A stretch of DNA of 64,000 nt from a virus (taxonomy: Duplodnaviria > Caudoviricetes), in IMG/VR virus record IMGVR_UViG_3300031555_004297; one strand, given 5' to 3'. Positions 10,718 to 58,323 of the stretch are shown here, piece after piece (positions within the stretch are counted from its first letter, which is position 1; every line of letters starts with the position of its first letter). Under the pieces are notes generated by a model. The model ran no database searches, had not been told where the DNA came from, and was given only the letters and a program-made list of their open reading frames with translations. The translations under genes were made by a program, and so were the position numbers.

Positions 10718-12115
10718 TTATACTTCGTTATCCTTATTAGGAACGACTCTTTCAAAATCTTCCTCTTCGGTACCATCGGGAGCAATACCAGCAGCCTGCT
10801 CATATTCTTCATCAGTTACTTCAAAGGTCTCATCTACAATACCAAGATCTTCGTCCATAAAATTGAACGGATCTTCGATAAGAAGACGAGGATTCGTATA
10901 AAGATCGCAAAGTTCTTTTGTATTAAATCTAGAAATAGATCTAAACCAATCACCTACTGCTTGTGCATACATGCGGATTTCTGCCTGAGCATGCTTATCT
11001 TCTCTAAGATGCAAGAACATCAGGAAACTCTTTACCGTAAATGTCATATAGATCTTTCTGCACTGAACATTTCCTGGGAGGAATGCTCTAGCATCTTCTT
11101 TCAGAAGATGGTGTTCCTGACCAGCAACAACAGGATTCTGAAGCTGCTCATAAATCTTACATATTGCATCTCCAATTTCATCGAGAGTGAGATGCATGGG
11201 GCTAGATGCTCCAAATCTGATATTGTACTTATGAGTTGCATCATACTTATCAGGCTTAAACAATGCAGGTGAGCTAAAGCATCCCTTGCTATAGTCTACA
11301 TATCTCTGAGACTCCTGAGTAATGCCATTTCTATGTCTTACAAGCTGATGAGTGCAAGTACGGCTCATATTCTTAAAAAGAATAGTAATAGATGCAAACT
11401 TAATCAGATCGAATGTTGTAATCTTTTCGGCGATCTCGGGTTCAATACTATAGAGATTCGTATACAGCTTCTTGATACTATCCATACCAATTACTTCAAA
11501 AAGTTCTGTATTTGCAGACTCGGGAAGAGATGCACTAAGCAGTTTGAAGTTTTCATCGGGCTCGAGATTCTGGAACAAATCTTTATCAAGAAGCTCGTAT
11601 GCACAGATATCTTCAAATGCGGCAGAGTTTCCATACTGGTAAAGAAGTGCTGTAATTGCCTGAAGAACAGGATTATTTAGATCTTCAGCTTCTTTATAGA
11701 GATCTGTAAAGCCTCTATAAGATCCACCGATAATAAAATGCCAGTATGTACCGTCATTAGACATTACACTAAAAGTATTAAGATACTTTACAGTAGTAAG
11801 AAAATCTACAAATTCAGGTGCAAACTTTACAGCAACTTTAAGATATGCAACAAAGTTACTGTGCTCAAGAATAGACGTATGGCCAGTCTTAGATCTACGT
11901 CCTACATAATCTGCAATTCCTTGATAATCTTCAGGAATTGGCTTATCCCAACAGCATGCTGATGCGGTTGCACAGATTGGAATTGCGTTATTCATACCTA
12001 CCAGGTATGCTTTGACTGCTCCAAATCCGATGGATTCTTCAGTCACTTTCTTCTTTCCGCCAACTTTAGTTCTGATTTTGGACATGGCGGTTTCTTTGGT
12101 AAACGGGTTGTTCAT
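10718..12115 (-). CDS. thyX: Flavin-dependent thymidylate synthase (extended)
   Basis: GHTSILEH, SRTCTHQLVRHRNGITQESQRYV, EDARAFLP, LR..KHAQAEIR. Confidence 0.92.
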   Translation of the reverse strand: MNNPFTKETAMSKIRTKVGGKKKVTEESIGFGAVKAYLVGMNNAIPICATASACCWDKPIPEDYQGIADYVGRRSKTGHTSILEHSNFVAYLKVAVKFAPEFVDFLTTVKYLNTFSVMSNDGTYWHFIIGGSYRGFTDLYKEAEDLNNPVLQAITALLYQYGNSAAFEDICAYELLDKDLFQNLEPDENFKLLSASLPESANTELFEVIGMDSIKKLYTNLYSIEPEIAEKITTFDLIKFASITILFKNMSRTCTHQLVRHRNGITQESQRYVDYSKGCFSSPALFKPDKYDATHKYNIRFGASSPMHLTLDEIGDAICKIYEQLQNPVVAGQEHHLLKEDARAFLPGNVQCRKIYMTFTVKSFLMFLHLREDKHAQAEIRMYAQAVGDWFRSISRFNTKELCDLYTNPRLLIEDPFNFMDEDLGIVDETFEVTDEEYEQAAGIAPDGTEEEDFERVVPNKDNEV

Positions 12116-12837
12116 AGTTTTTCTACCTCCTTAATAATTCTATCCCAAATTTCATCTGCAATTTCACTTCTACTTTTAATTGTATTATCCTCATTAAGGA
12201 CATCAATCACGATAAGATTGATTCCTGCAGATGCAAAGACATTTGTTTGGATTGCTCTCTCAGAGCGCTCCCATACACCTTGAATAAAAGATGTATCAAG
12301 TTCATTTAAATCCTTATTAGCTTTCTCAGCGATGAGCTGTCGAAGCACATCAAATGATTTCATTCTCATCCATACTACGATATCAGGTGTAGGAATTCCA
12401 TATACCTTTTCATCGTAGAGAAGGTCTTCAACAGATACGTTATTTTGATCCTTCATAGGATTATAAATAGCATTGGAAGAGCTGTATCTATCAAACAAGA
12501 ATACAGACTCTTTGTTTTTAAGCTTATCAATATTTCTTTGTATTCCATGTACTGATTCATACCAATATGCGAGTCTATCAGCACAATATAGATTGCAAGT
12601 AGCGATCGGATGCGATTTCATATGATCTCTATCAAGAGATCCATCTAACCATTTCTCAAGCATCAAAGCAGGTTGAGTTCCATATCTTGGAAATGATTCT
12701 GTAATAATTTCTACATCTGCTTCATAGCGAAGGCGAGCAGCAAAAGTTTTATAATTCGTTTCCTTAAACGAATTATCTAGACCTTCAAATGCAATTATTC
12801 GACCATTAAGCATTTCTTCAAAGTCAGTCATTTTCAT
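12112..12837 (-). CDS. tmk: Thymidylate kinase-like dNMP kinase
   Basis: IIAFEGLD..K, FPRY, DR, FDRYSSSN and PDIVV motifs; coupled to thyX. Confidence 0.8.
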   Translation of the reverse strand: MKMTDFEEMLNGRIIAFEGLDNSFKETNYKTFAARLRYEADVEIITESFPRYGTQPALMLEKWLDGSLDRDHMKSHPIATCNLYCADRLAYWYESVHGIQRNIDKLKNKESVFLFDRYSSSNAIYNPMKDQNNVSVEDLLYDEKVYGIPTPDIVVWMRMKSFDVLRQLIAEKANKDLNELDTSFIQGVWERSERAIQTNVFASAGINLIVIDVLNEDNTIKSRSEIADEIWDRIIKEVEKL

Positions 12838-12936
12838 TCTCCTTTTATGTAATAATTACTTAATTGTATTGATCTCTGTATAATCATAAAAATATGCTTA
12901 AAGATATAATATAATAATGAAAGGAAGTGATTTAAC

Positions 12937-13749
12937 TTGACAAATTTTGAATGGGACTTCTATCAACCTATAGCAAAAAGATTATTTGACTATATGAATG
13001 GTAGAATTAATAAAATGAATAACCGATGTATTCTATACATCGATATGTATGATAATATTCGTAATACTTATGCTACTATTCGATATCCAAATCATATATT
13101 TCTTCATCTGGGAAATATTATAGATAGTTGGAATAATGAGTGGTATGGTATTATCAAAAAAGAAGAATATGTTTGCACTGTATTGGCTTGGGCCATTGCA
13201 CATGAATTATTTCATGCAGATCAAGCTATTCAAATGGTAATGTATATGAGCAATAATGCCTATAAAGAGGATAAAGAAAATGACGTACAACGATCTAGCT
13301 ATGATTGGGTGAGCGATAACCAATTTGTTTTATCAAATCTTATAGGAATTAGAATTGATATGGAGGCAATCACGTCAGATTCGCTTCCAGATGAAGGTCA
13401 TTATAGAAAGGCATCACCTGCAGAGTTTTATAAGCAGACTATAGCCAATACCATTCTAAAAGACCTTCAACTATTTAATAAATTAACATTTTTTACAAAT
13501 GATGCTGAGGCTGATGATATCATACTGATGTTTAATTCTAAAGAATCAGTTGTTATTAAAAGTGGAGGCAGATATCTTGCAGAAAATATAAGTGCATTTA
13601 GTGATATGACATATCGCTATGTAGCATATTATGATGTCTATGTCGTAAATGTAAATGTAGAAACTATAATGCGAGATGGACGATCTGTAGTTATAGTGGA
13701 TTTGAAAATTGATAATCCACTATTCTATCCAATGATGTTTAAAAAATAG
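12937..13749 (+). CDS. Zincin-like HExxH protein
   Basis: AIAHELFHA followed by E..V; early promoter GATATAATATA at 12903. Confidence 0.6.
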   Translation: MTNFEWDFYQPIAKRLFDYMNGRINKMNNRCILYIDMYDNIRNTYATIRYPNHIFLHLGNIIDSWNNEWYGIIKKEEYVCTVLAWAIAHELFHADQAIQMVMYMSNNAYKEDKENDVQRSSYDWVSDNQFVLSNLIGIRIDMEAITSDSLPDEGHYRKASPAEFYKQTIANTILKDLQLFNKLTFFTNDAEADDIILMFNSKESVVIKSGGRYLAENISAFSDMTYRYVAYYDVYVVNVNVETIMRDGRSVVIVDLKIDNPLFYPMMFKK

Positions 13750-13765
13750 AGAGGAGATATGACAA

Positions 13766-14314
13766 ATGAAACATTATGCTAAATGGATGGAAGTTCAGAA
13801 AATCCATCCGCAAGATGATTACATGCTAAGGATTAATTATACGAAAATGCTTAGCGCTTGTCCAGATTTAGCAGATGTATGTCTTAATGATTTCTTAAAA
13901 TGTTGTAATTCTGTATTTATTCTTGTAGATAAGATTTATGGCAATACTCTTGGAATCATTGCAATTAGACAAGCATCTGTAGAAGAATTAAAGATTGCTG
14001 GTCTCGGATACTATTGTTTAGATAATCAAGCTTTATATAAGATTGAAGCCTTCCATTGTGATAGTAATGTCTCAGATGAAGACTGTTCTAAGCTAATTAA
14101 CACAGCTATCGCAGATAAGAATGATGGATTTATCTTCTATCGTCCAGTCTGCCCTACGGTTAAAGATCGAGAGAACTTTAAAGATTTTGTAGGATTTACT
14201 GAAACTACAGTTGTAAAAGATAATAAAGAATTAAATTACTTTGTTAAACCGCCGGCAGTATATGGAGAAGCTTCTCCAGAACGTCAAATAGAAGAAGTAA
14301 CAGAGTTGGCTTAA
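13766..14314 (+). CDS. Hypothetical protein, possibly degenerate GNAT fold
   Basis: LGIIAI...YKIEAFHC...KLINTAI...F..FVGF pattern; SD AGGAG. Confidence 0.5.
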   Translation: MKHYAKWMEVQKIHPQDDYMLRINYTKMLSACPDLADVCLNDFLKCCNSVFILVDKIYGNTLGIIAIRQASVEELKIAGLGYYCLDNQALYKIEAFHCDSNVSDEDCSKLINTAIADKNDGFIFYRPVCPTVKDRENFKDFVGFTETTVVKDNKELNYFVKPPAVYGEASPERQIEEVTELA

Positions 14315-30745: not shown

Positions 30746-30856
30746 CAAAAGAAAGTCCGAGAATCCTGCTCTGGATTCTCGGAAGAAAGGTGCCCACATG
30801 CTGCTATATGCCAAAACAACACTCGGAGGTAACAACGGAATCTGAATAACACCGTC
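30746..30856 (-). ncRNA. Candidate ~110-nt late sRNA with anti-SD motifs
   Basis: AACA-TATCAA-TG promoter at 30867-30856; UUACCUCC and CACCUUUC motifs; terminator hairpin at 30756-30783 plus U-run. Confidence 0.5.
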
Positions 30857-30876
30857 ATTGATATGTTATATTATGA

Positions 30877-31169
30877 TAAAAATATTCCGGATGGGCGTCA
30901 ACCATCCGGAATACCAGGCCCTGTTAAATAAGGGTCCTTACATACGACACAACGCCTCGGAAAATATTATGCCTTTCTTTAGTGCAACAACTCACTAGAA
31001 AGGCATGTCGGGCCGCCTCTTCTCTTATGATGCCCCATTCACACACCATAAGAGTCCATAATCAAGCTTTAATTAAGTAGCGCTTTGTATATAAAACCCC
31101 AACGAGGTCAGCTTTATATACTATTGATTATTTAAGCACCACCAAAAACAATCAATCATTGCACTACTT
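30877..31169 (-). ncRNA. Candidate ~290-nt structured late ncRNA
   Basis: AACA-AAAATA-TA promoter at 31180-31169; six or more stems whose mismatches become G-U on the minus strand; terminator at 30883-30913; no convincing SD-led ORF. Confidence 0.6.
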
Positions 31170-31261
31170 ATATTTTTGTTGACATTGCAGTAACTTATTA
31201 CCTCAATAAATTGAATGCTTGTTTCAACATATCGGTAAATGAAAATAGGAGGTTGCTTATA

Positions 31262-32086
31262 ATGCCTAACAATATTCCTACGATTGGATACGTTATTCTT
31301 GAAAGCGCACCTCTGGAGGCTCCTGAGGTTAGCGTTATTTCTGATACCGGAAATAGAGTAATCGGTGAAGGAGTTATCCAGGAAGCCGAAGAAGAAAATA
31401 GAAATGGTCGTTGCTATCTTCATAACGACCTGCTTAGAGAAATCCAGTGTCCTAGAACAATGGAGCTTCTTACTACTGGAAATATGTTTGCTGAAAATGG
31501 TCACCCGATGGATATGTCGATGGCTAGACAGCAGACTATCGATCCCAATAACAGAGTTGCTAGATTCCTTAAGATTTGGATGGAAGGCAATAAAGTTATG
31601 GCGCAATTTAAAGGGTCTAATGACCCCAAGGGTGAATCTTTCGATCAGGACCTTCGTGAAGGGTTGAAACCTAGCTGGTCGCTTAGAGCTCTTGGATCTC
31701 TCAATAACATTAGGGGTAGAAATGTAGTCGAAAATCTTCGTGTAATCACTTGGGATAGAGTTATTTATCCTTCTCATCCTGGTGCTTATACAACCCGTCT
31801 TGTAACCGAGTCTGCAGCATATGCTAATGAGATTGCTCATATCGAAAGAGTCAATGAAAACGGCTGTCTCATTCCGATTACAAACGATAGCATTCTCTCG
31901 TATCTTAAGACAGAGTCTGCTAATATCAAGAGTCTTCTTTCTCAGATTGATTTTCTTTACGAGTCTGCTACTATCGTAAGAGGAAATCAGGTTCGTCTCG
32001 TTGCAAAGAATGGTGATATCTTCGTGGTTAACCTCGAGAGTCATATTTCTAACGAGATTCAGGCATACTGCAAAAAGATGATCTGA
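31262..32086 (+). CDS. Prohead core protease (T4 gp21-like)
   Basis: GVIQEA...NRNGRCY, ENGHP, SWSLRALGS, TWD.V..PSH..AY; ATG at 31262 after AGGAGG. Confidence 0.88.
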   Translation: MPNNIPTIGYVILESAPLEAPEVSVISDTGNRVIGEGVIQEAEEENRNGRCYLHNDLLREIQCPRTMELLTTGNMFAENGHPMDMSMARQQTIDPNNRVARFLKIWMEGNKVMAQFKGSNDPKGESFDQDLREGLKPSWSLRALGSLNNIRGRNVVENLRVITWDRVIYPSHPGAYTTRLVTESAAYANEIAHIERVNENGCLIPITNDSILSYLKTESANIKSLLSQIDFLYESATIVRGNQVRLVAKNGDIFVVNLESHISNEIQAYCKKMI

Positions 32087-35215: not shown

Positions 35216-35581
35216 TTAAATATGCGAATGCTTCTTAAGATATCTTCTAATAGCGCAATCTATCTCAATAAGTTTCTTAGCACAATCTTGAGGTTCAAGA
35301 ATTGCCTTTAGATGATATTTTTCTTTGTCTGTAACAGATTCGCATACAGGATATACATTTCTAACCGTTTTTGTTTTTAAAACACGGCCATATCTATCCC
35401 ATTCTATTGCTTCTTCAGTATATTCTACAAGTTCAGCTTTAATTAACTCCATATCTAATAAAGCTGGCATATCGAATAACTGAAGCTCATACCGCCTAGC
35501 TCCAGTTTGCTTAATAGAGCTTTTAATGATTCCACCATAATTTTCTAAAACGCGTAGAAAATGGTTTATTAAGTATTCCAC
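35216..35581 (-). CDS. Hypothetical protein
   Basis: GTG start with AGGAGG SD. Confidence 0.7.
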   Translation of the reverse strand: MEYLINHFLRVLENYGGIIKSSIKQTGARRYELQLFDMPALLDMELIKAELVEYTEEAIEWDRYGRVLKTKTVRNVYPVCESVTDKEKYHLKAILEPQDCAKKLIEIDCAIRRYLKKHSHI

Positions 35582-38772: not shown

Positions 38773-40314
38773 TTACGATTCTTTCAGATCTAACGGATCA
38801 TCAAATTCCATGGGCTGAATTAGAGTTTCTCGAGATATTTTTATATCATTACATCTCTTTTCTAACTCAGATCCTGTAAGATTGATCTCTACGCAATCTG
38901 TCGCATATTTCTTAAATACTGGTTTCTTGAATTCATAAAACTTCTTTGTATGAAAGAATCCAGTATCTACGATATCTTTATAAAGAGTATTAGGATCTCT
39001 TGTGCGCCCAAGCGTCTGCTGTGCCAATACTTTAGACTTAAAGGGCTCTGCAAGGTTTACAGTTTCTACAAGGCCTTTAATATCCATTGCTGCTCCAGCA
39101 CTCTTAGTTGTACTAATGATTATCTTCTTTTGAAGCTCTAGGGGTTTCTTATCAGGAGGTACAATGCTTGTGTATACTCCAACTTGGCCTATAAGCTCAG
39201 GGAAACTTTCATATATAAGATCTCTTACATATAGAATTGCTTCATTAGTCCCTACGTAAAACAGATGCTTTCCAGGCTTCTTTAAAGCCATATTTACTAA
39301 GACTATAAGAAGCTTTTTAAACTCTGCAGAATGAACTAAATAATCTGTATAAACAGTACGATTCAATCCGTAATTATTCTTACATCTTCCAGCTTCAACC
39401 GGAGTAGGATTTGAATTAAATCGAATTGCAGCATACTTTGTATGAGGATCATTCTCACCATCAAATAGATTGATCTTTGGTACATTCTTGAAATAGTAGT
39501 TAAAGATAATATTCTCTCCGGCATCGCTTCGTCCAGGAGTTGCTGTAAGATAATAAGTGATAAAGCTATTTGAATAGCAATCAATCTGAAACATAGAATC
39601 GAAGTTCAGATGTGCTTCATCATAAAACTTTACTCCTATTTGGCAATGTCTAAAAAATTCTCTAATCTTATCCCATCCTTGTTTATCTCCAATACTTTTT
39701 ATGGTCGAATGCGTAGATAGGATTACTTTATATTTAGATACGTCTCTATTTAATAGCTTCATCAATGAAGGGGCCCCAGAAATAAAATAAATTTCATCTT
39801 CAGTAATATTTGTATATTCCATGAAGAATTTCTTCCATTGCTCAAGCCATCCAACATTGTTTGTTATTACCATAGATCTGAATCCAAGATATGCTGCTAC
39901 GGCAATAGCACAATAAGTCTTTCCCTTACCAGTATTTAGATTTACAGACATCATTGTGCTGGTCTCATTTCTAAAATATTTATCCATGCTAAGCATAAAT
40001 TTGATAGCTTCTTTTTGTGTATCATCTCTCGGTTTATACTTAAGCATAATAGGTCCTACATCTCCAGTAGGATCCATACTAGAATCTACTATAGGTTCAG
40101 ACTGTAATAATCTTTCTATATATCCGATATCAATACCTCTCGGAAGCATCAATATCTTATTTTCTTCATCATAAATCATTCCTTTTGGGAATCTTTTGTG
40201 ATAAGTCATATCATAAATCGAAAACATTTTTTCAATTTGAGGACAATCACCCATTGTATAATTATTGACCTCTATGTGAGTTCGATAGATGACGATTTTA
40301 TTCATAATTATCAC
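38773..40314 (-). CDS. Superfamily 2 helicase (UvsW-like)
   Basis: PRDDTQ Q-motif, TGKGKT, DEAH, TATP and QTLGR motifs. Confidence 0.9.
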   Translation of the reverse strand: MIIMNKIVIYRTHIEVNNYTMGDCPQIEKMFSIYDMTYHKRFPKGMIYDEENKILMLPRGIDIGYIERLLQSEPIVDSSMDPTGDVGPIMLKYKPRDDTQKEAIKFMLSMDKYFRNETSTMMSVNLNTGKGKTYCAIAVAAYLGFRSMVITNNVGWLEQWKKFFMEYTNITEDEIYFISGAPSLMKLLNRDVSKYKVILSTHSTIKSIGDKQGWDKIREFFRHCQIGVKFYDEAHLNFDSMFQIDCYSNSFITYYLTATPGRSDAGENIIFNYYFKNVPKINLFDGENDPHTKYAAIRFNSNPTPVEAGRCKNNYGLNRTVYTDYLVHSAEFKKLLIVLVNMALKKPGKHLFYVGTNEAILYVRDLIYESFPELIGQVGVYTSIVPPDKKPLELQKKIIISTTKSAGAAMDIKGLVETVNLAEPFKSKVLAQQTLGRTRDPNTLYKDIVDTGFFHTKKFYEFKKPVFKKYATDCVEINLTGSELEKRCNDIKISRETLIQPMEFDDPLDLKES

Positions 40315-51547: not shown

Positions 51548-52702
51548 ATGCCGATTATTTCTGTTAATCCAATCGATAAAAAGATCTATCGAGTGACCGT
51601 AACATTGGGTCACAATATGATGGAGAATATAGTAGTTTCCGATGATGGATTGTATAGTGTTTTCTATATCCAGAATGGCACTAGCCACAATCATACCGGG
51701 CGTATTCTGAATGTTATTCAGAATAATATGATGCCTCAGAACAGTTATATTTTATTTGACTGGTCTGCAGATAATCACAATCGTAGAGAAAGAATTTACT
51801 TCCATCAGATCCAGTACATTAAAGATGTAACTCCTAATGATGCATATAGAATTGCTGTACAGCATGGATTTGTTGGATCTGTTGAAGACTGGCTTGAATC
51901 CATGCGTGGTTACCCTGGAAAGAGTAACTACGAGATTGCTGTCGAGTGCGGTTACGAAGGAACACAGGCAGAATACATTGAAAGCTGTCGTGGAGCTCGT
52001 GGTTATAGTGCTTATGAGATTGCAGTAAGAAATGGCTTCCAAGGAACTGAAGAGGAGTGGCTAGCTTCTCTTACAGGCAAGGATGGTAAGTCCGCTTACG
52101 AGATTGCGGTTGAGCATGGATATGAAGGTACCGAAGAAGAGTGGATCAACGATATTATGGCAGGCGGAGGAAGCTCTGGAGGAACTGGAGCTGACGGTAA
52201 ATCCGCTTACGAGATTGCTTGTGATCATGGCTTTAAAGGAACTGAAGAAGAGTGGCTTGAATCCCTTAAGGGAGAACCTGGAGAGCCTGGTAGAGACGGT
52301 ACAATCGGTAAAGATGGTAAATCCGCATATCAGATTGCACTTGATCATGGTTTCGAGGGAGATGAGACTGCTTGGTTAAAATCTCTTTGCGGTAAGTCTG
52401 CATATGAGCTTGCTATTGAGCATGGATTTAAGGGATCTGAAGATGAATGGCTGGATTCTCTTAAAGGTGCAAATGGTAAGAGCGCATATGATATTGCTGT
52501 TGAACACGGTTTTGAAGGTGATGAAATTGCTTGGCTCGAGTCTCTTAGAGGTAAGGATGGTAAATCCGCATATGAGCTTGCTGTTGAGCATGGATTCGAA
52601 GGAACCATCGAGGAGTGGTTCGCTCAGAATGGCGATGTGACCATTGTCTACCAGGATGTAGAGGGCCTTAAGCAGGCATCTACTTGGACTGATGGCATGT
52701 AA
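51548..52702 (+). CDS. Collagen-associated repeat protein (9 x GKSAYE.A...GF.G.E.EWL.SL.G)
   Basis: Nine repeats visible in the translation; late promoter AACA-ATTAAT-TA. Confidence 0.8.
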   Translation: MPIISVNPIDKKIYRVTVTLGHNMMENIVVSDDGLYSVFYIQNGTSHNHTGRILNVIQNNMMPQNSYILFDWSADNHNRRERIYFHQIQYIKDVTPNDAYRIAVQHGFVGSVEDWLESMRGYPGKSNYEIAVECGYEGTQAEYIESCRGARGYSAYEIAVRNGFQGTEEEWLASLTGKDGKSAYEIAVEHGYEGTEEEWINDIMAGGGSSGGTGADGKSAYEIACDHGFKGTEEEWLESLKGEPGEPGRDGTIGKDGKSAYQIALDHGFEGDETAWLKSLCGKSAYELAIEHGFKGSEDEWLDSLKGANGKSAYDIAVEHGFEGDEIAWLESLRGKDGKSAYELAVEHGFEGTIEEWFAQNGDVTIVYQDVEGLKQASTWTDGM

Positions 52703-52892: not shown

Positions 52893-54863
52893 ATGATGTT
52901 TTGGCATATTGTAACCTCGAGTGTGTATCGTGCTGGAACTCCTACTGAAGGTGACATGTACTTCATTTCGGATACCAGAGAGATCTATCGTGGTTCGGAA
53001 TTGTTCACAGAGTCCGTAACTCTGTATGAGACGCTTCCTACTGTTTCAATTGCTATTAATCGTCTATACATTGATAAGAATACTCTTGAGGGCAAGATTT
53101 ACGATGGTTCTAAGTGGACCACCGTTATTAAGCCTGTAGAGACTACTTTCAATGCAGAGAGCGAGAATCCTGTCACTGCTAAGGCAATTGCTGGCTACGT
53201 TGCTGATCAGATTGCAAATGTTACCGGTTCTGGTGATGTTGTTACTGAGGTAACGTGGGATGAAGCTAATGCTATTCTTAGCGTTAAGAAGGGAAGCAGC
53301 GCTACTGAGACTATCGTATTTGATGGCCTTGGTGTAACGCTTACCTATGATGCTGCTACTGGTTCGCTCCAGTTGGCAGATGTTTCTGGCAATAAGATCG
53401 GCGATGCTATTAGCCTCGATCTCGAGCGCTTTGTAACTGCCGGTGAATATAATGCCGATACTCAGGAAATCATCCTGTACTTCGATGCCGACAAGACTGA
53501 GTCTGTTACGATTCCTGTTGGTGCACTTGTAGATACCTACACTGCCGAGTCCAGTACGACTCTCGATCTTACCGTTTCTGGCAACAAGTTTGTTGGTAAT
53601 GTAAAGATCTCTACTACTGAGGGCAACCTTATTACTGTCAATGAAGATGGTATTTATGTTGCTCCTATTGATATTTCTGGCAAGATGGATAAGGTTGCTG
53701 GAGCAGTTGAGGGCGATATCGCTGTTCTCGATGCTGATGGTAATGTTGTTGATTCTGGCAAGAAGTTCGAAGACCTCGTTCCTAATAATAAGGTTTACGA
53801 GGGCGCTACTCTTGATGAGGCTATTACTGGCGTAACTCCTATCAAGGGCGATGTTGCAATCGTTTCTTCTCCTATTGGCGAGACTGGTAAGGTTCAGAAG
53901 ACTGTTCACCAGTACGATGGTGAGAAGTGGAATGCTTTCGATTCTGACTATGATGCGAGCAAGGTATTCCTTTCTTCCGACTGGATTACCACTACGAAGA
54001 TTGGTCAGATCCAGACGCTTACTGGCGGTCAGGCTGTTGTTGCTCCTGCTGGTACTGATGTCGCTACTGCTCTCATGAAGCTCACCGCTAAAGAAGAGCA
54101 GCCTACCGTTTCTGATCCTGCTGTATCTTGGGCTAATAGCTCTGCTAGCGAATTCAAGGCATACGAGGTTGGTGAAATTGTTCCTATTTCCGTTACTGCA
54201 GCACTTTCTGCTGGTAGCTACAGCTACGGTAGAATCGATGCCGATGGTAAATATGAAACAGCTACTTCTGCTGGTATTGCAGCAACTGGCTATACCTTCA
54301 CCGATACTAATGGTGTAGAGCGTACTGGTAGCAATACTGCTGTATTCGATGATGTAGAGGTTACTGACGGAATCAACTACAAGGTTACTGCTTCTGTAAC
54401 TTACGATGGTTCTGCATATAAGCCTGCTACTAACTTCAAGAATCTCTCAACTAAGTCTACTATTGCAGCTGGTTCTAAGAGTGCTACGACCGGTGCTATT
54501 ACTGGATATCGTAACTGCTTCTATGGAACTCTCACCGAGAAGGATTCTGTTCTTACTTCGTCCATTATCCGTGGCCTGACTGCTACTGGTAAGGCCGTTG
54601 CTAAGGGAACTACTCTTAGTCTCTCTGTACCTGCTGGCATTATGAGAGCTATCGTCGCATATCCTGCAAGCGCTACTACTCTTACTGCTCTTAGCTCCGT
54701 TAAGGATGCTAATGACTCCAATGCTGAGATCTCGTCTTCGTTCGAGATGACTCAGATCGACGTTGAAGGTAAGAATGGATATACCGCTGTAGCATATAAG
54801 GTATTTGTCAAGACCTGGGCTTCTGGTAATGGTAAGGCAAACACCTATGCTATCACTATCTAA
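52893..54863 (+). CDS. Fibre-like virion protein
   Basis: T/G/A/D-rich beta structure; N-terminus shared with 56617..58323; late promoter at 52801. Confidence 0.65.
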   Translation: MMFWHIVTSSVYRAGTPTEGDMYFISDTREIYRGSELFTESVTLYETLPTVSIAINRLYIDKNTLEGKIYDGSKWTTVIKPVETTFNAESENPVTAKAIAGYVADQIANVTGSGDVVTEVTWDEANAILSVKKGSSATETIVFDGLGVTLTYDAATGSLQLADVSGNKIGDAISLDLERFVTAGEYNADTQEIILYFDADKTESVTIPVGALVDTYTAESSTTLDLTVSGNKFVGNVKISTTEGNLITVNEDGIYVAPIDISGKMDKVAGAVEGDIAVLDADGNVVDSGKKFEDLVPNNKVYEGATLDEAITGVTPIKGDVAIVSSPIGETGKVQKTVHQYDGEKWNAFDSDYDASKVFLSSDWITTTKIGQIQTLTGGQAVVAPAGTDVATALMKLTAKEEQPTVSDPAVSWANSSASEFKAYEVGEIVPISVTAALSAGSYSYGRIDADGKYETATSAGIAATGYTFTDTNGVERTGSNTAVFDDVEVTDGINYKVTASVTYDGSAYKPATNFKNLSTKSTIAAGSKSATTGAITGYRNCFYGTLTEKDSVLTSSIIRGLTATGKAVAKGTTLSLSVPAGIMRAIVAYPASATTLTALSSVKDANDSNAEISSSFEMTQIDVEGKNGYTAVAYKVFVKTWASGNGKANTYAITI

Positions 54864-54881: not shown

Positions 54882-56477
54882 ATGGCTGGATATAGTTATG
54901 AAATGATTACAAACATTTTGGGCAGAGCTGTTGCTTTTATGCCCGAGACCGCATTCCCGCTTGATGCGAGAGTTTACTTTGGTTCGTATACTGAGGCAGC
55001 TGCAGCCGCTAAGAGTGCTAAGCCTGCTGGTTCTAACGAATCCATCTACTTCTATGGTCAGCAGATCTATGTTGTAGAAAATGATGTTGTTACGACCTAC
55101 CTTATTCAGGTAGATGGTAGCCTTAAGGAGGTAGGATCTGCTACTCTTGGCGATGAGAAGACTATTTCTCTTGGTGAAGATGGCGTTCTTAGCCTTAAGA
55201 ATTTCGGTAAGCAGTACTATGCTTACGTACCTGCAGATGTTATCATCGAGGGTACTTACACAACTGCTGATGAGCTTCCTACTGAGGGAGTTAATGCTGG
55301 AGAGTATGCTAAGGTTGGCGATGCTTACTATCTTTATAATGGAGAGGCATGGGCTGTTGCTACAACGGCTCCTAAGACCCAGGCCGAGCATGTTCTCACT
55401 GAAGGCTGGCAGACTGGACTTGAGCCCAAGGTTGTAGCTGCCGCTTCTGGCGATGGCTATGAGCTTGCATGGTATGAGCCTTCTTCGACTACTGTCGAGG
55501 GACTTAACTCTATCGTTGCTGGCGTTCAGACAAGTGTTTCTAACCTTGCTGATGCCGTTGCTGCAAATAAGACTGCTGCTGAGCAGGATGTAGCTGATGA
55601 AGCTGCTGCTCGCGAGGCTGCTGATTCTGAGCTTAATACCAAGATCGCTGGTAATACTGCAGCTATCAATAAGCTTAATGGCGGTGCTGAGAATGAGGGT
55701 TCGGTGCTTCATACTGTTAACACTGTTCTTGCACAGCTTGTTGGTGATGGTTCTCAGGAGACTATTGACTCTCTTACTGAGCTCGTAGAGTGGGCTAACT
55801 CTCACTCCACTGAGGTTGTTGAGATGAGCAATGATATCGAGCAGAATAAGGTAGATATCTCTGCCCTTGAGACTCTGCTTGGTACTCTTCCCGAGGGTGT
55901 AACTGCAACTACTGTTGTAGCATACATTGCCGAGGCTGTTAAGGCTGAAGAGACTCGTGCTCTTGCAGCTGAGAAGGCCCTTAGCGATCGTCTTGATACT
56001 GCTGAGGCTACTCTTAATGGTCTTGGAACTGCTGCACAGGCAGATGCTGATGACTTTGCAACTGCTGAGCAGGGTGCTAAGGCAGATACTGCAGTACAGA
56101 GTGTTGTATCTAGCGACAATGGTTATGTTGCTGTAGATAATGACAAGGTTAAAGTATACGAGCTTCCTGCTGCTAAAGTTAATCAGCTTGGTGGTATCAC
56201 TCCCGATGGTGCTTCTATCGTTACTGATGATAACGGTGTTGCTTCTGTATCGGCTGTTGATTCCTCTAAGGTTACTGGCCTTGATGCTAAGCTTGAGGCT
56301 ACCCAGAATGCTGCCGAGGCTGCTGCTCAGGAGTACACTGATGAGAATGCTGTTGCTAAGAGCTCCGTAGTTGCTACGGCTGCCGAGGCTGCTGCTTCTG
56401 TCGATGAAGCTTCTGCTGAAAAGGTTGCATCTGAGAAGCTTATTCTCGAGCTCTTTACTTGGAAGACCGAGATGTAA
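54882..56477 (+). CDS. Fibre-like coiled-coil virion protein
   Basis: FPLDAR head motif, Ala-rich heptads, DSLTELVEW, ATAEQGAKADTA. Confidence 0.65.
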   Translation: MAGYSYEMITNILGRAVAFMPETAFPLDARVYFGSYTEAAAAAKSAKPAGSNESIYFYGQQIYVVENDVVTTYLIQVDGSLKEVGSATLGDEKTISLGEDGVLSLKNFGKQYYAYVPADVIIEGTYTTADELPTEGVNAGEYAKVGDAYYLYNGEAWAVATTAPKTQAEHVLTEGWQTGLEPKVVAAASGDGYELAWYEPSSTTVEGLNSIVAGVQTSVSNLADAVAANKTAAEQDVADEAAAREAADSELNTKIAGNTAAINKLNGGAENEGSVLHTVNTVLAQLVGDGSQETIDSLTELVEWANSHSTEVVEMSNDIEQNKVDISALETLLGTLPEGVTATTVVAYIAEAVKAEETRALAAEKALSDRLDTAEATLNGLGTAAQADADDFATAEQGAKADTAVQSVVSSDNGYVAVDNDKVKVYELPAAKVNQLGGITPDGASIVTDDNGVASVSAVDSSKVTGLDAKLEATQNAAEAAAQEYTDENAVAKSSVVATAAEAAASVDEASAEKVASEKLILELFTWKTEM

Positions 56478-56616
56478 TATATGTGGCCCGAGAGAATATT
56501 ATTTCTCTCGGGCTTTACTAACAAATTCGCTCGCCCTCTTTTGGGTGATTTAAAACATAATAATAAACTATTTAAATCATTTAAGTAGAATTTATTTCTC
56601 AGGAGGAATAATTAAT

Positions 56617-58323
56617 ATGCTTTCATGGTATGTCTTGACAAGCAGTGCATTTAAGACTGCTGTCGAAGCTAATAAGGTCACCAGCGATATGATGATCTTT
56701 ACTAGCGATACTCACGAAATTTATCGTGGAACTCAGGCGTACACCGAGTCTACCGTTCTCTTTACTGGTACTAACGGTGCACATCCTACTCAGACTGCCG
56801 CTGTAGGCAAGTTGTACATTAACTCTGCTACTCTCGAGGGTTGGGTATACAATGGTACTTCTTGGACTCAGGTAATTAAGGCAGTCGCTACTACTGTTAA
56901 TGCTTCTGATACAACTCAGGCTGTTTCTGGTAAGGCTGTTGCCGATTACGTTGCAACCGAGGTTGGAAAGGCTCAGAGTAATGTAACGGAGCTTGAGAAG
57001 ACTGTTGCTGCAAATAAGACTGCTGCTGAGCAGGCAGTTGCTGCTGAGGCTACTGCTCGTGAGGCCGCAGATGGAACTCTTCAGGGTAATATCGATACTC
57101 TCTCTGGTACTGTAACTGCTAATAAGACGGCTGCAGATACTGGTATTCAGGAAGCTAAGGATGCGGCTGCAGCTGCTAAGACTGCTGCAGATGAGGCTCA
57201 GGCTGATGCTGATAAGAATGCCGAAGATATTGCTGCTATTAATACCACTCTTGCATCTGTTGCAACTGATGGCGAGCTTAATGCTGCAAAGCAGGATCTT
57301 CAGGCTAAGATCGATGCTGTTGATGGCAAGGCTGATGCAAATGCTGCAGCTATTGAGCTTCTTAACGGTGCCGCTGAGACTGAAGGATCCGTTCTTTACA
57401 TGATCAATGATGTTCTTGTTGATCTTGTTGGTGATGGTTCTCAGGCTACTATCGACTCTCTTACTGAGCTTGTAAACTGGGCAAATGAGCATGCTTCTGA
57501 TGTTATCGAGATGAATAATAGCATCTCTGCTAACACTAGCGGTGTTGCTGCAAATGCTAGCGCTATCGATGCTCTCGAGGCTCTTGTAGGCACGCTTCCT
57601 AGTGGAACTTCCGCTACGACTGTATGTCTCTACATTGCAGAGGTTGCTGCTGATCTTGCTGAAGAGGTAACTGCTCGCACTAACGGCGATGCTGCTCTTG
57701 CAGAAGATATCAGCGAGCTTAACACTGCTGTAACTAACCTTACCACGACAGTTGGTAATAATAAGACTGCTCTTGAGCAGGCTGATGCACAGCTTCGTGA
57801 GGATCTTACTGCTCTTCAGGGCACTGTTAACACTCTGAGCCAGACTGTTGCTGCAAATAAGACTGCTGCTGAGCAGGCAGTTGCTGCTGAGGCTACTGCT
57901 CGCGGCGAGGCTATTGCTGCAGTTCAGGAAGATGTAGATGCTAATGCTGATGCTATTGCTCTCATTAATGAGAACCTTGGTTCTTATGCTACTGATGAAG
58001 AGGTTGGCGCTATTAGAACTGCTCTTGAAGGACTTATCTCTGCTAAGATGGCTAAGGTTGGTACTGGCAAGACTGGTGAAGTTATCGTAGCTGATGCTAA
58101 CGGTGATGCTAGTGCTTCTGGCAAGAAGATTGGTGGATCTACCTTCGGTTCCAACCAGACTGATACTCTTGCTACTGAGGCTGGCGTTGTTGCATATGTT
58201 GGTGCTAATGCTGTTGCTAAGACTGCAGTCGTTACTACTCTTGATGCTGACGCTCCCAGTGATGCTGAGGTTCCCTCTGAGTCTGCTGTTGTTGCAGCTC
58301 TTACTTGGAAGACCTCTATCTAA
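56617..58323 (+). CDS. Fibre-like coiled-coil virion protein
   Basis: Shares modules with both preceding genes; late promoter AACA-TAATAA-TA. Confidence 0.65.
   Translation: MLSWYVLTSSAFKTAVEANKVTSDMMIFTSDTHEIYRGTQAYTESTVLFTGTNGAHPTQTAAVGKLYINSATLEGWVYNGTSWTQVIKAVATTVNASDTTQAVSGKAVADYVATEVGKAQSNVTELEKTVAANKTAAEQAVAAEATAREAADGTLQGNIDTLSGTVTANKTAADTGIQEAKDAAAAAKTAADEAQADADKNAEDIAAINTTLASVATDGELNAAKQDLQAKIDAVDGKADANAAAIELLNGAAETEGSVLYMINDVLVDLVGDGSQATIDSLTELVNWANEHASDVIEMNNSISANTSGVAANASAIDALEALVGTLPSGTSATTVCLYIAEVAADLAEEVTARTNGDAALAEDISELNTAVTNLTTTVGNNKTALEQADAQLREDLTALQGTVNTLSQTVAANKTAAEQAVAAEATARGEAIAAVQEDVDANADAIALINENLGSYATDEEVGAIRTALEGLISAKMAKVGTGKTGEVIVADANGDASASGKKIGGSTFGSNQTDTLATEAGVVAYVGANAVAKTAVVTTLDADAPSDAEVPSESAVVAALTWKTSI
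57000..57902 (+). repeat. ~60-bp direct repeat pair in a fibre gene (57000-57059 and 57843-57902; partial copy near 55557)
   Basis: GACTGTTGCTGCAAATAAGACTGCTGCTGAGCAGGCAGTTGCTGCTGAGGCTACTGCTCG occurs twice. Confidence 0.85.

What the first reader, a model, noticed from the sequence alone, without database searches (positions are those of the whole stretch)
30746..30867. Late sRNA with two-site complementarity to the structured early leader at 40640-40900
The sRNA segment CAUGUGGGCACCUUUC (30800-30785) pairs with leader GAAAGGUGUGCACAUG (40889-40874) at 15 of 16 positions, counting one G-U, and covers the uORF SD and AUG. A second segment UGUUACCU (30834-30827) pairs with AGGUAACA (40822-40815) at the uORF stop, in collinear order. 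This is a trans-encoded pair 10 kb apart, one late and one early.
Basis: partly seen in the sequence, partly recalled or inferred. Interest (0 to 1): 0.8.

Follow-up and report, generated by a model that had tools for sequence, protein, structure and literature searches.

The report
Jumbo-phage late RNA with possible decoy
An uncultured giant phage and ten related lineages keep a gene for a small late RNA that mirrors ribosome-binding sites; in this phage and its closest sisters a second, early RNA displays a matching dummy site that may soak it up, but neither RNA nor their pairing has been observed.

Summary
The base-pairing is as described: 14 Watson-Crick pairs plus 1 G-U in 16, and 8 of 8 at the second site. 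The window is from an AR9/phiKZ-like jumbo phage. The 30856-30746 unit is very likely a real late sRNA gene: a late promoter, a U-rich non-coding body and a terminator recur beside the prohead-protease gene in 11 lineages, most with an anti-Shine-Dalgarno tract. The 'leader' is itself a conserved early RNA; one hairpin loop shows CAUUCUCC, complementary to a ribosome-site tag on about 10 genes. Site 1 survives unchanged in a sister phage (57% synonymous identity), where its first 9 nt are unpaired. It has no compensatory change, no counterpart in five farther lineages, and an energy shuffles often reach. Best reading (about 0.45): an RBS-masking sRNA, with two RNA-polymerase subunit genes as top mRNA candidates, plus a recent single-site decoy in the early RNA. 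This scan had already reported late anti-RBS sRNAs in this genome and in other jumbo phages. No RNA data were obtainable.

The parts
30856..30867 (-). Late (non-virion RNAP type) promoter AACA-N6-TG; predicted start G30856
   Evidence: Matches AR9 late consensus (PMC5312081); same motif precedes the prohead protease gene at 31226; present in all 11 lineages
30746..30856 (-). Late sRNA, about 111 nt: hairpin H1, hairpin H2, free anti-SD tract, terminator
   Evidence: Positional conservation; alignment and consensus fold of five close homologs; no Rfam family; opposite-strand ORF not conserved
30834..30856 (-). 5' hairpin H1 (GACGG/CCGUU); loop hypervariable
   Evidence: Stem invariant in 5 close homologs; other 3' arms in L249 and L251 still pair with the same 5' end
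30827..30834 (-).
   Evidence: Differs in each of L242, L265, L407 and L247; cognate energies
30794..30828 (-). Hairpin H2 with loop UUUGGCAUA (anti-start-codon-like); the 5' half of site 1 is its 3' arm
   Evidence: One two-sided and three one-sided pair-keeping changes in L247; paired one-base deletions on both arms in L407; UUGGCA/UUGCA also in L255, L001, L043
30784..30793 (-). Free seed GCACCUUUCU (anti-SD) between H2 and the terminator
   Evidence: Unpaired in the consensus fold, partly paired in the single-sequence ensemble; GGCACCUUU invariant in 5 homologs
30746..30783 (-). Intrinsic terminator (11 bp) and U-tract
   Evidence: compensatory A-U/U-A change among homologs
40896..40915 (-). 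Early (virion RNAP type) promoter; predicted start G40896
   Evidence: 11/13 to AR9 early consensus with correct spacing; conserved in L240, L242, L265
40874..40889 (-). Site 1, an SD-like sequence in the early RNA; candidate decoy
   Evidence: 15/15 identical in sister L265 with diverged flanks; first 9 nt unpaired in L265, partly unpaired here; G-to-A at its first base in strain L240
40806..40896 (-). Variable 5' domain of the early RNA (closing stem GAAGAAC/GUUCUUC); contains the non-conserved 19-codon uORF (40876-40817) and site 2 (40822-40815)
40670..40798 (-). Conserved multi-hairpin core of the early RNA
   Evidence: Recognisable in six lineages with different stem sequences; MAFFT alignment too poor for a formal covariation count
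40771..40778 (-). CAUUCUCC loop motif, complementary to the RBS tag AGGAGAAUG
   Evidence: Its CUCC core lies in a hairpin loop in the minimum-energy fold of five homologs; here the open form is 0.7 kcal/mol above a self-paired form; tag at 10 of 158 called genes
40418..40636 (-). 72-aa small protein gene behind the early RNA, itself carrying the tag
   Evidence: no Pfam or PHROG hit
31262..32086 (+). Prohead protease gene, the divergent synteny anchor
   Evidence: PF03420, phrog_207
38773..40305 (-). SF2 helicase gene, synteny anchor of the early RNA
   Evidence: PF04851, phrog_16

Best explanation
The non-virion RNA polymerase makes a ~111-nt late sRNA (inferred from promoter and terminator). 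It exposes an anti-SD seed and an anti-AUG loop and dampens translation by covering ribosome-binding sites of phage mRNAs (inferred). In this genome the best mRNA candidates are the only two genes whose RBS contains AGGUGCC: the non-virion RNAP beta'-N subunit (G000:87347-88666) and a 1266-aa RNAP beta subunit, probably the virion one (G000:62525-66325). That would be a brake on the phage's own polymerases. In this species cluster the early RNA carries one SD-like stretch that is not a real start site and binds the same seed. It would act as a decoy or sponge that holds the sRNA back until it outnumbers the early RNA. Shown: sequences, conservation, folding predictions. Inferred: expression, targets, binding, direction of control.
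For: Unit kept in 11 lineages with promoter and terminator while the body diverges. Hairpins kept by pair-preserving changes. Pairing to start regions is better than shuffles on average: mean -16.3 against -13.9 to -15.8 in 12 of 12 shuffles, and mean z is negative in 9 of 11 lineages. Site 1 is 15/15 identical in L265, whose synonymous identity is 0.57 (0.57^15 = 2e-4, 0.57^9 = 7e-3), although the AUG is gone and the flanks have indels; its first 9 nt are unpaired there. It ranks first of 159 start regions by duplex energy and third of 160 with accessibility. SD-anchored null P about 0.016. The RNAP-subunit RBSs score z -2.6 and -3.1, are the only two with AGGUGCC, are identified, and lie behind late-like AACT-N6-TA motifs.
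Against: No compensatory change anywhere in site 1; it is only co-conserved. The last 6 nt of site 1 are paired inside L265's early RNA and their partners form the arm of H2, so structure alone may explain part of the conservation. Strain L240 loses a pair uncompensated. Five farther lineages show no sRNA-early RNA pairing. RNAP-subunit RBSs in G001-G004 do not match their own sRNAs (z -0.6 to 0.9). No neighbouring ortholog is a shared target (best centred Stouffer -1.8). Genome-wide energy is unremarkable (17/60 shuffles). The candidates were picked after the fact. No RNA data (one search failed).
Confidence: 0.45

Rival explanations
1. The sRNA is real and masks ribosome-binding sites, but its match to the early RNA is incidental: a purine-rich SD-like stretch kept for the early RNA's own fold or for a protein ligand.
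For: Pair absent in five lineages; 47% of shuffles give such a 16-mer; GAAAGG occurs 104 times in the genome; the early core is nearly 100% identical between this phage and L265, so local conservation is common in this RNA; L267 keeps the 72-aa gene with no early RNA in front of it.
Against: The unpaired 9-mer is kept exactly in a domain that otherwise diverges; next-best GAAAGG site extends by only 5 WC + 1 GU against 8 + 1 here.
Confidence: 0.3
2. The sRNA's real targets are host mRNAs (Firmicute-type GAAAGG/AAAGGAG sites), part of host shut-down; the phage matches are by-products.
For: Seeds differ between lineages and find no near-perfect partner in their own genomes (best hits have 2 mismatches with wobble allowed); their complements read like Firmicute start regions; nearest cultured relatives infect Bacillus and Staphylococcus.
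Against: Host unknown and untested; late timing fits shut-off poorly (inference).
Confidence: 0.12
3. One reading: a two-site duplex blocks the uORF from SD to stop and so switches the downstream 72-aa gene (attenuation-like).
For: In this strain both sites are perfect or nearly so and collinear; joint SD-anchored P about 0.001.
Against: uORF start lost in L242 and L265; site 2 lost in both; the core occurs without a downstream gene in L258.
Confidence: 0.05
4. The unit is not a functional RNA: a promoter-terminator spacer, or a tiny ORF on the opposite strand.
For: Body sequence is very variable across lineages; an SD plus ATG exists on the plus strand (15 codons).
Against: Promoter, H1/H2 folds and terminator kept with pair-preserving changes; the plus-strand frame changes or vanishes in every homolog.
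Confidence: 0.08

Closest known systems
Anti-sRNAs / RNA sponges AgvB (EHEC prophage Sp5, against GcvB) and SprY (S. aureus prophage, against RNAIII); review PMC12197685
   Same: One RNA mimics the target site of another and would sequester it.
   Different: Those are prophage RNAs acting on host sRNAs. Here both RNAs would come from a phage with its own polymerases and belong to different temporal classes. No sequence homology; nothing shown experimentally.
RBS-masking trans sRNAs of Firmicutes with C-rich seeds (RsaE/RoxS, RNAIII; from my own knowledge)
   Same: Own promoter and terminator; unpaired pyrimidine seed complementary to SD sequences.
   Different: No Rfam match; seed turns over between lineages; read by a phage polymerase.
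Jumbo-phage sRNAs of unknown target: phiR1-37 misc_4 (PMC4848604), 201phi2-1 sRNA005 and phiKZ ncRNA candidates (PMC11512511, PMC10914365)
   Same: Short non-coding transcripts in phiKZ-like phages; position conserved between relatives.
   Different: In the passages read, none is described as anti-SD or paired with another phage RNA; different genomic positions; sequence homology not tested.
Cuckoo RNA family (PMC4615179), for the early RNA
   Same: Anti-SD motif shown in a hairpin loop on stems of variable sequence.
   Different: Cuckoo has 2-4 hairpins each with CCUCCUCCC in alphaproteobacteria; here a single loop with CAUUCUCC(U) inside a larger fold, matching a phage-specific tag.

Membership tests
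Trans-encoded base-pairing sRNA | Own promoter and terminator, intergenic | tested here: met
Trans-encoded base-pairing sRNA | No conserved reading frame | tested here: met
   (plus-strand ORF not kept in homologs)
Trans-encoded base-pairing sRNA | Exposed seed complementary to an RBS elsewhere | tested here: met
Trans-encoded base-pairing sRNA | Seed and target covary across relatives | tested here: not met
   no candidate target covaries; site 1 is only co-conserved
Trans-encoded base-pairing sRNA | Transcript detected and regulatory effect shown | not testable with these tools
RNA sponge / anti-sRNA (AgvB, SprY type) | Mimics the sRNA's target site without being a translated target | tested here: inconclusive
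   SD-like site kept while AUG is lost; restricted to one species cluster
RNA sponge / anti-sRNA (AgvB, SprY type) | Relieves repression of the sRNA's mRNA targets | not testable with these tools
   needs reporters or infection data
uORF-controlled leader (attenuator) | Conserved uORF start and frame | tested here: not met
Cuckoo family (early RNA) | 2-4 hairpins each with CCUCCUCCC | tested here: not met
   no Rfam hit
Any Rfam family | Covariance-model score above gathering threshold | tested here: not met

The most novel reading that the evidence does not exclude
An AR9-like jumbo phage runs an all-RNA timing circuit: an early RNA silences a tagged set of genes through its CAUUCUCC loop and also sponges a late sRNA, which in turn brakes translation of the phage's own RNA polymerase subunits, so two phage-encoded regulatory RNAs from the two polymerases set the early-to-late balance.
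Probability: 0.2. Interest if true: 0.8.

Novelty: new variant of a known kind. Interest (0 to 1): 0.48.

Why it matters
phiKZ/AR9-like phages are thought to time their genes mainly with two RNA polymerases. Conserved anti-RBS RNAs would add a translational layer. A sponge pair between an early and a late phage RNA did not turn up in my limited literature searches. The comparison also corrects the proposed model (no uORF control, one site only), and it points to the early RNA's conserved loop and its matching RBS tag as a more widely conserved and more testable feature than the pair itself.

Tried and rejected
Helicase start (14 WC + 1 GU with the sRNA 5' end): it needs the H1 loop, which varies even between strains; rejected. 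Prohead protease start (-25.8 kcal/mol here): falls to -18.9 and -11.9 in cognate pairs L407 and L247; rejected as a conserved target. Major capsid start: not significant once each sRNA's general anti-SD bias is removed. The 15/16 match at 52909 is on the non-coding strand of an ORF; chance. Inverted DNA duplication as the origin of the match: the sequence between the two sites is unrelated. HDV-like ribozyme for the early core: considered by eye, topology does not fit; not modelled. Formal covariation count on the early core: alignment out of register, so no statistic is claimed. Pattern scans of viral contigs gave almost only chance hits. GTDB search found no close clade member. Whole genomes of L265, L249, L255 and L257 are not held, so the RNAP-subunit RBSs could not be checked in the nearest lineages.

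Full report
Context. The window is G000:96001-160000 of a 185-kb virus contig. It encodes a prohead protease, large terminase, SF2 helicase and divergent family-B polymerase. Its terminase is closest to Bacillus and Staphylococcus jumbo phages (up to 39% identity). The genome encodes split RNA polymerase subunits, one homologous to the AR9 non-virion enzyme. It is an uncultured AR9/phiKZ-like phage; the host is unknown.

Observation. Both complementarities are present as stated. The AR9 promoter consensus sequences (PMC5312081) place a late start at G30856 and an early start at G40896, and an 11-bp terminator with a U-tract ends the late unit near 30746. How unusual the match is depends on the null. 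Unanchored, 47% of shuffles give an equally good 16-mer in the window, and 17 of 60 reach the best genome-wide duplex energy. Anchored on the shared anti-SD hexamer, P is about 0.016 for site 1 and 0.001 for both sites. Site 1 ranks first of 159 start regions by duplex energy and third of 160 when accessibility is counted.

The late unit is very likely a real sRNA gene. On the strand opposite the protease gene, 11 lineages with 71-100% protease identity carry the late promoter, a 40-140 nt U-rich body and a terminator. The unit is missing from this position in more distant phages (50% identity or less) and was not found in L258 or L259. Most bodies contain CCUUU, CUCCUUU or ACCUC; L251 has none. 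Five close homologs share hairpin H1, hairpin H2 with a UUGGCA loop, a free GCACCUUU tract and the terminator, with pair-keeping substitutions and a paired deletion. The SD-plus-ATG on the opposite strand opens a different frame in each homolog. There is no Rfam match. Pairing to start regions is on average better than shuffles, which fits an RBS-masking RNA.

The 'leader' is a separate conserved RNA. A core at 40798-40670 is found in six lineages. Its stems differ in sequence but still pair. In five homologs the minimum-energy fold puts the CUCC of a CAUUCUCC-type motif in a hairpin loop; here the open form is 0.7 kcal/mol above a self-paired one. The complement AGGAGAAUG sits at 10 of 158 called start regions here. 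It occurs 10, 20 and 13 times in G001, G003 and G004 (reversed controls 2, 3, 2) but only twice in G002. G002 lacks the RNA at this position and by pattern search. G004's contig ends just before the RNA's position, so it is uninformative for the RNA. The reversed control is not an SD, so part of that excess is ordinary SD content, and G002 is a single negative. L258 has a variant loop, one matching variant tag in its locus, and a terminator straight after the core, so the RNA need not be a leader. The 5' domain that holds sites 1 and 2 is the variable part.

Is the pair real? Against: the uORF start is AUA in strain L242 and AUC in sister L265. Site 2 collapses in both. Strain L240 loses a pair of site 1 with no compensation. 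In L249, L251, L003, L001 and L005 the cognate RNAs pair no better than shuffles; L005 has no early core, so its intergenic region was used. For: L265 (92% helicase identity, 0.57 identity at four-fold sites) keeps 15 of 15 bases of site 1 while the flanks diverge with indels, and the first 9 of them are unpaired in its predicted fold. The matching sRNA tract is the free stretch between H2 and the terminator. The other 6 bases are structural on both sides, so only the 9-mer is independent evidence (0.57^9 = 0.007, chosen after the fact). An SD-like sequence kept without a start codon is what a decoy would look like, but no compensatory change was seen.

mRNA targets. Only two of 158 start regions contain AGGUGCC. 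One is the non-virion RNAP beta'-N gene, where seed and H2 loop could pair collinearly over SD and AUG (z -2.6). The other is a 1266-aa RNAP beta gene with no solved homolog, probably the virion subunit (z -3.1). Both lie behind late-like promoters. Their orthologs in G001-G004 do not match those genomes' different seeds, and the nearest lineages could not be checked. Protease, capsid and helicase starts were tested and dropped. Wobble-aware scans for the L001 and L003 seeds found only 2-mismatch sites, one at the DHH gene start. Targets therefore look lineage-specific or lie in the host.

Mechanism and odds. I put the late sRNA gene at about 0.85 and RBS masking as its mode at about 0.75. The combined model (RBS-masking sRNA plus one-site early decoy in this species cluster) is about 0.45; incidental match 0.30; host targets 0.12; non-functional 0.08; uORF switch 0.05. 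All steps beyond sequence and folding are inferred.

Comparison and novelty. It would work like Firmicute anti-SD sRNAs (own knowledge) and, for the pair, like the sponges AgvB and SprY (PMC12197685), but it belongs to no catalogued family. Published jumbo-phage sRNAs have no proven targets in the passages read. The early RNA resembles Cuckoo RNAs in design but fails their motif test. Earlier agents of this scan reported late anti-RBS sRNAs in this genome and in other jumbo phages; those notes are unchecked and are not counted as support. What is particular here is the possible sRNA-sRNA link, which is plausible but unproven.

Noticed in passing
window 40771-40778 (-) and start regions at 12842, 37073, 40649, 45948 and elsewhere in G000: The early RNA's loop is complementary to an RBS tag AGGAGAAUG at about 10 genes; the tag is frequent in G001, G003, G004 and rare in G002, which lacks the RNA. 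More widely conserved than the reported pair and worth its own study.
   Followed up: partly
window 40753-40798 (-): An internal GGAG-type tag copy just upstream can pair with the loop in all six homologs (seen by eye; near-equal energies here): a possible two-state switch.
   Followed up: partly
window 40836-40872 (-); G000:82642-82920: The variable 5' domain has an 11-nt complement to the RBS of a 92-aa gene; in L265 the same place is a 12-nt complement to the RBS of the 121-aa gene (window 35216-35581 ortholog). The domain may be a changing seed region.
   Followed up: partly
window 30877-31180 (-): A second, larger structured unit upstream of the sRNA; its 3' part and terminator are recognisably kept in L265, L407, L003 and L043.
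   Followed up: no
G000:87347-88666 and G000:62525-66325: The only two start regions with AGGUGCC are both RNA polymerase subunit genes.
   Followed up: partly
L001:8700-8757 (-) and the DHH gene start near L001:642: In this lineage the sRNA's best own-genome match is the DHH phosphoesterase start (z -4.6); not shared by other lineages.
   Followed up: partly
L240 and L242, terminase region 10941-14076; L265:5505-9313: Terminase and DNA polymerase genes are interrupted by HNH-bearing insertions in some strains and not others (likely mobile introns).
   Followed up: no
L253:5662-19277, L257, L258, L259: The flanks of the protease gene are an insertion hot spot for runs of small minus-strand genes; the sRNA unit moves away with the upstream gene in L253 and L257.
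   Followed up: no
L267:1-465: A close relative (88% helicase identity) has an ORF instead of the early RNA in front of the 72-aa gene.
   Followed up: no
window 51830-52618 and 55535-58219: Coding repeats in tail-region genes.
   Followed up: no
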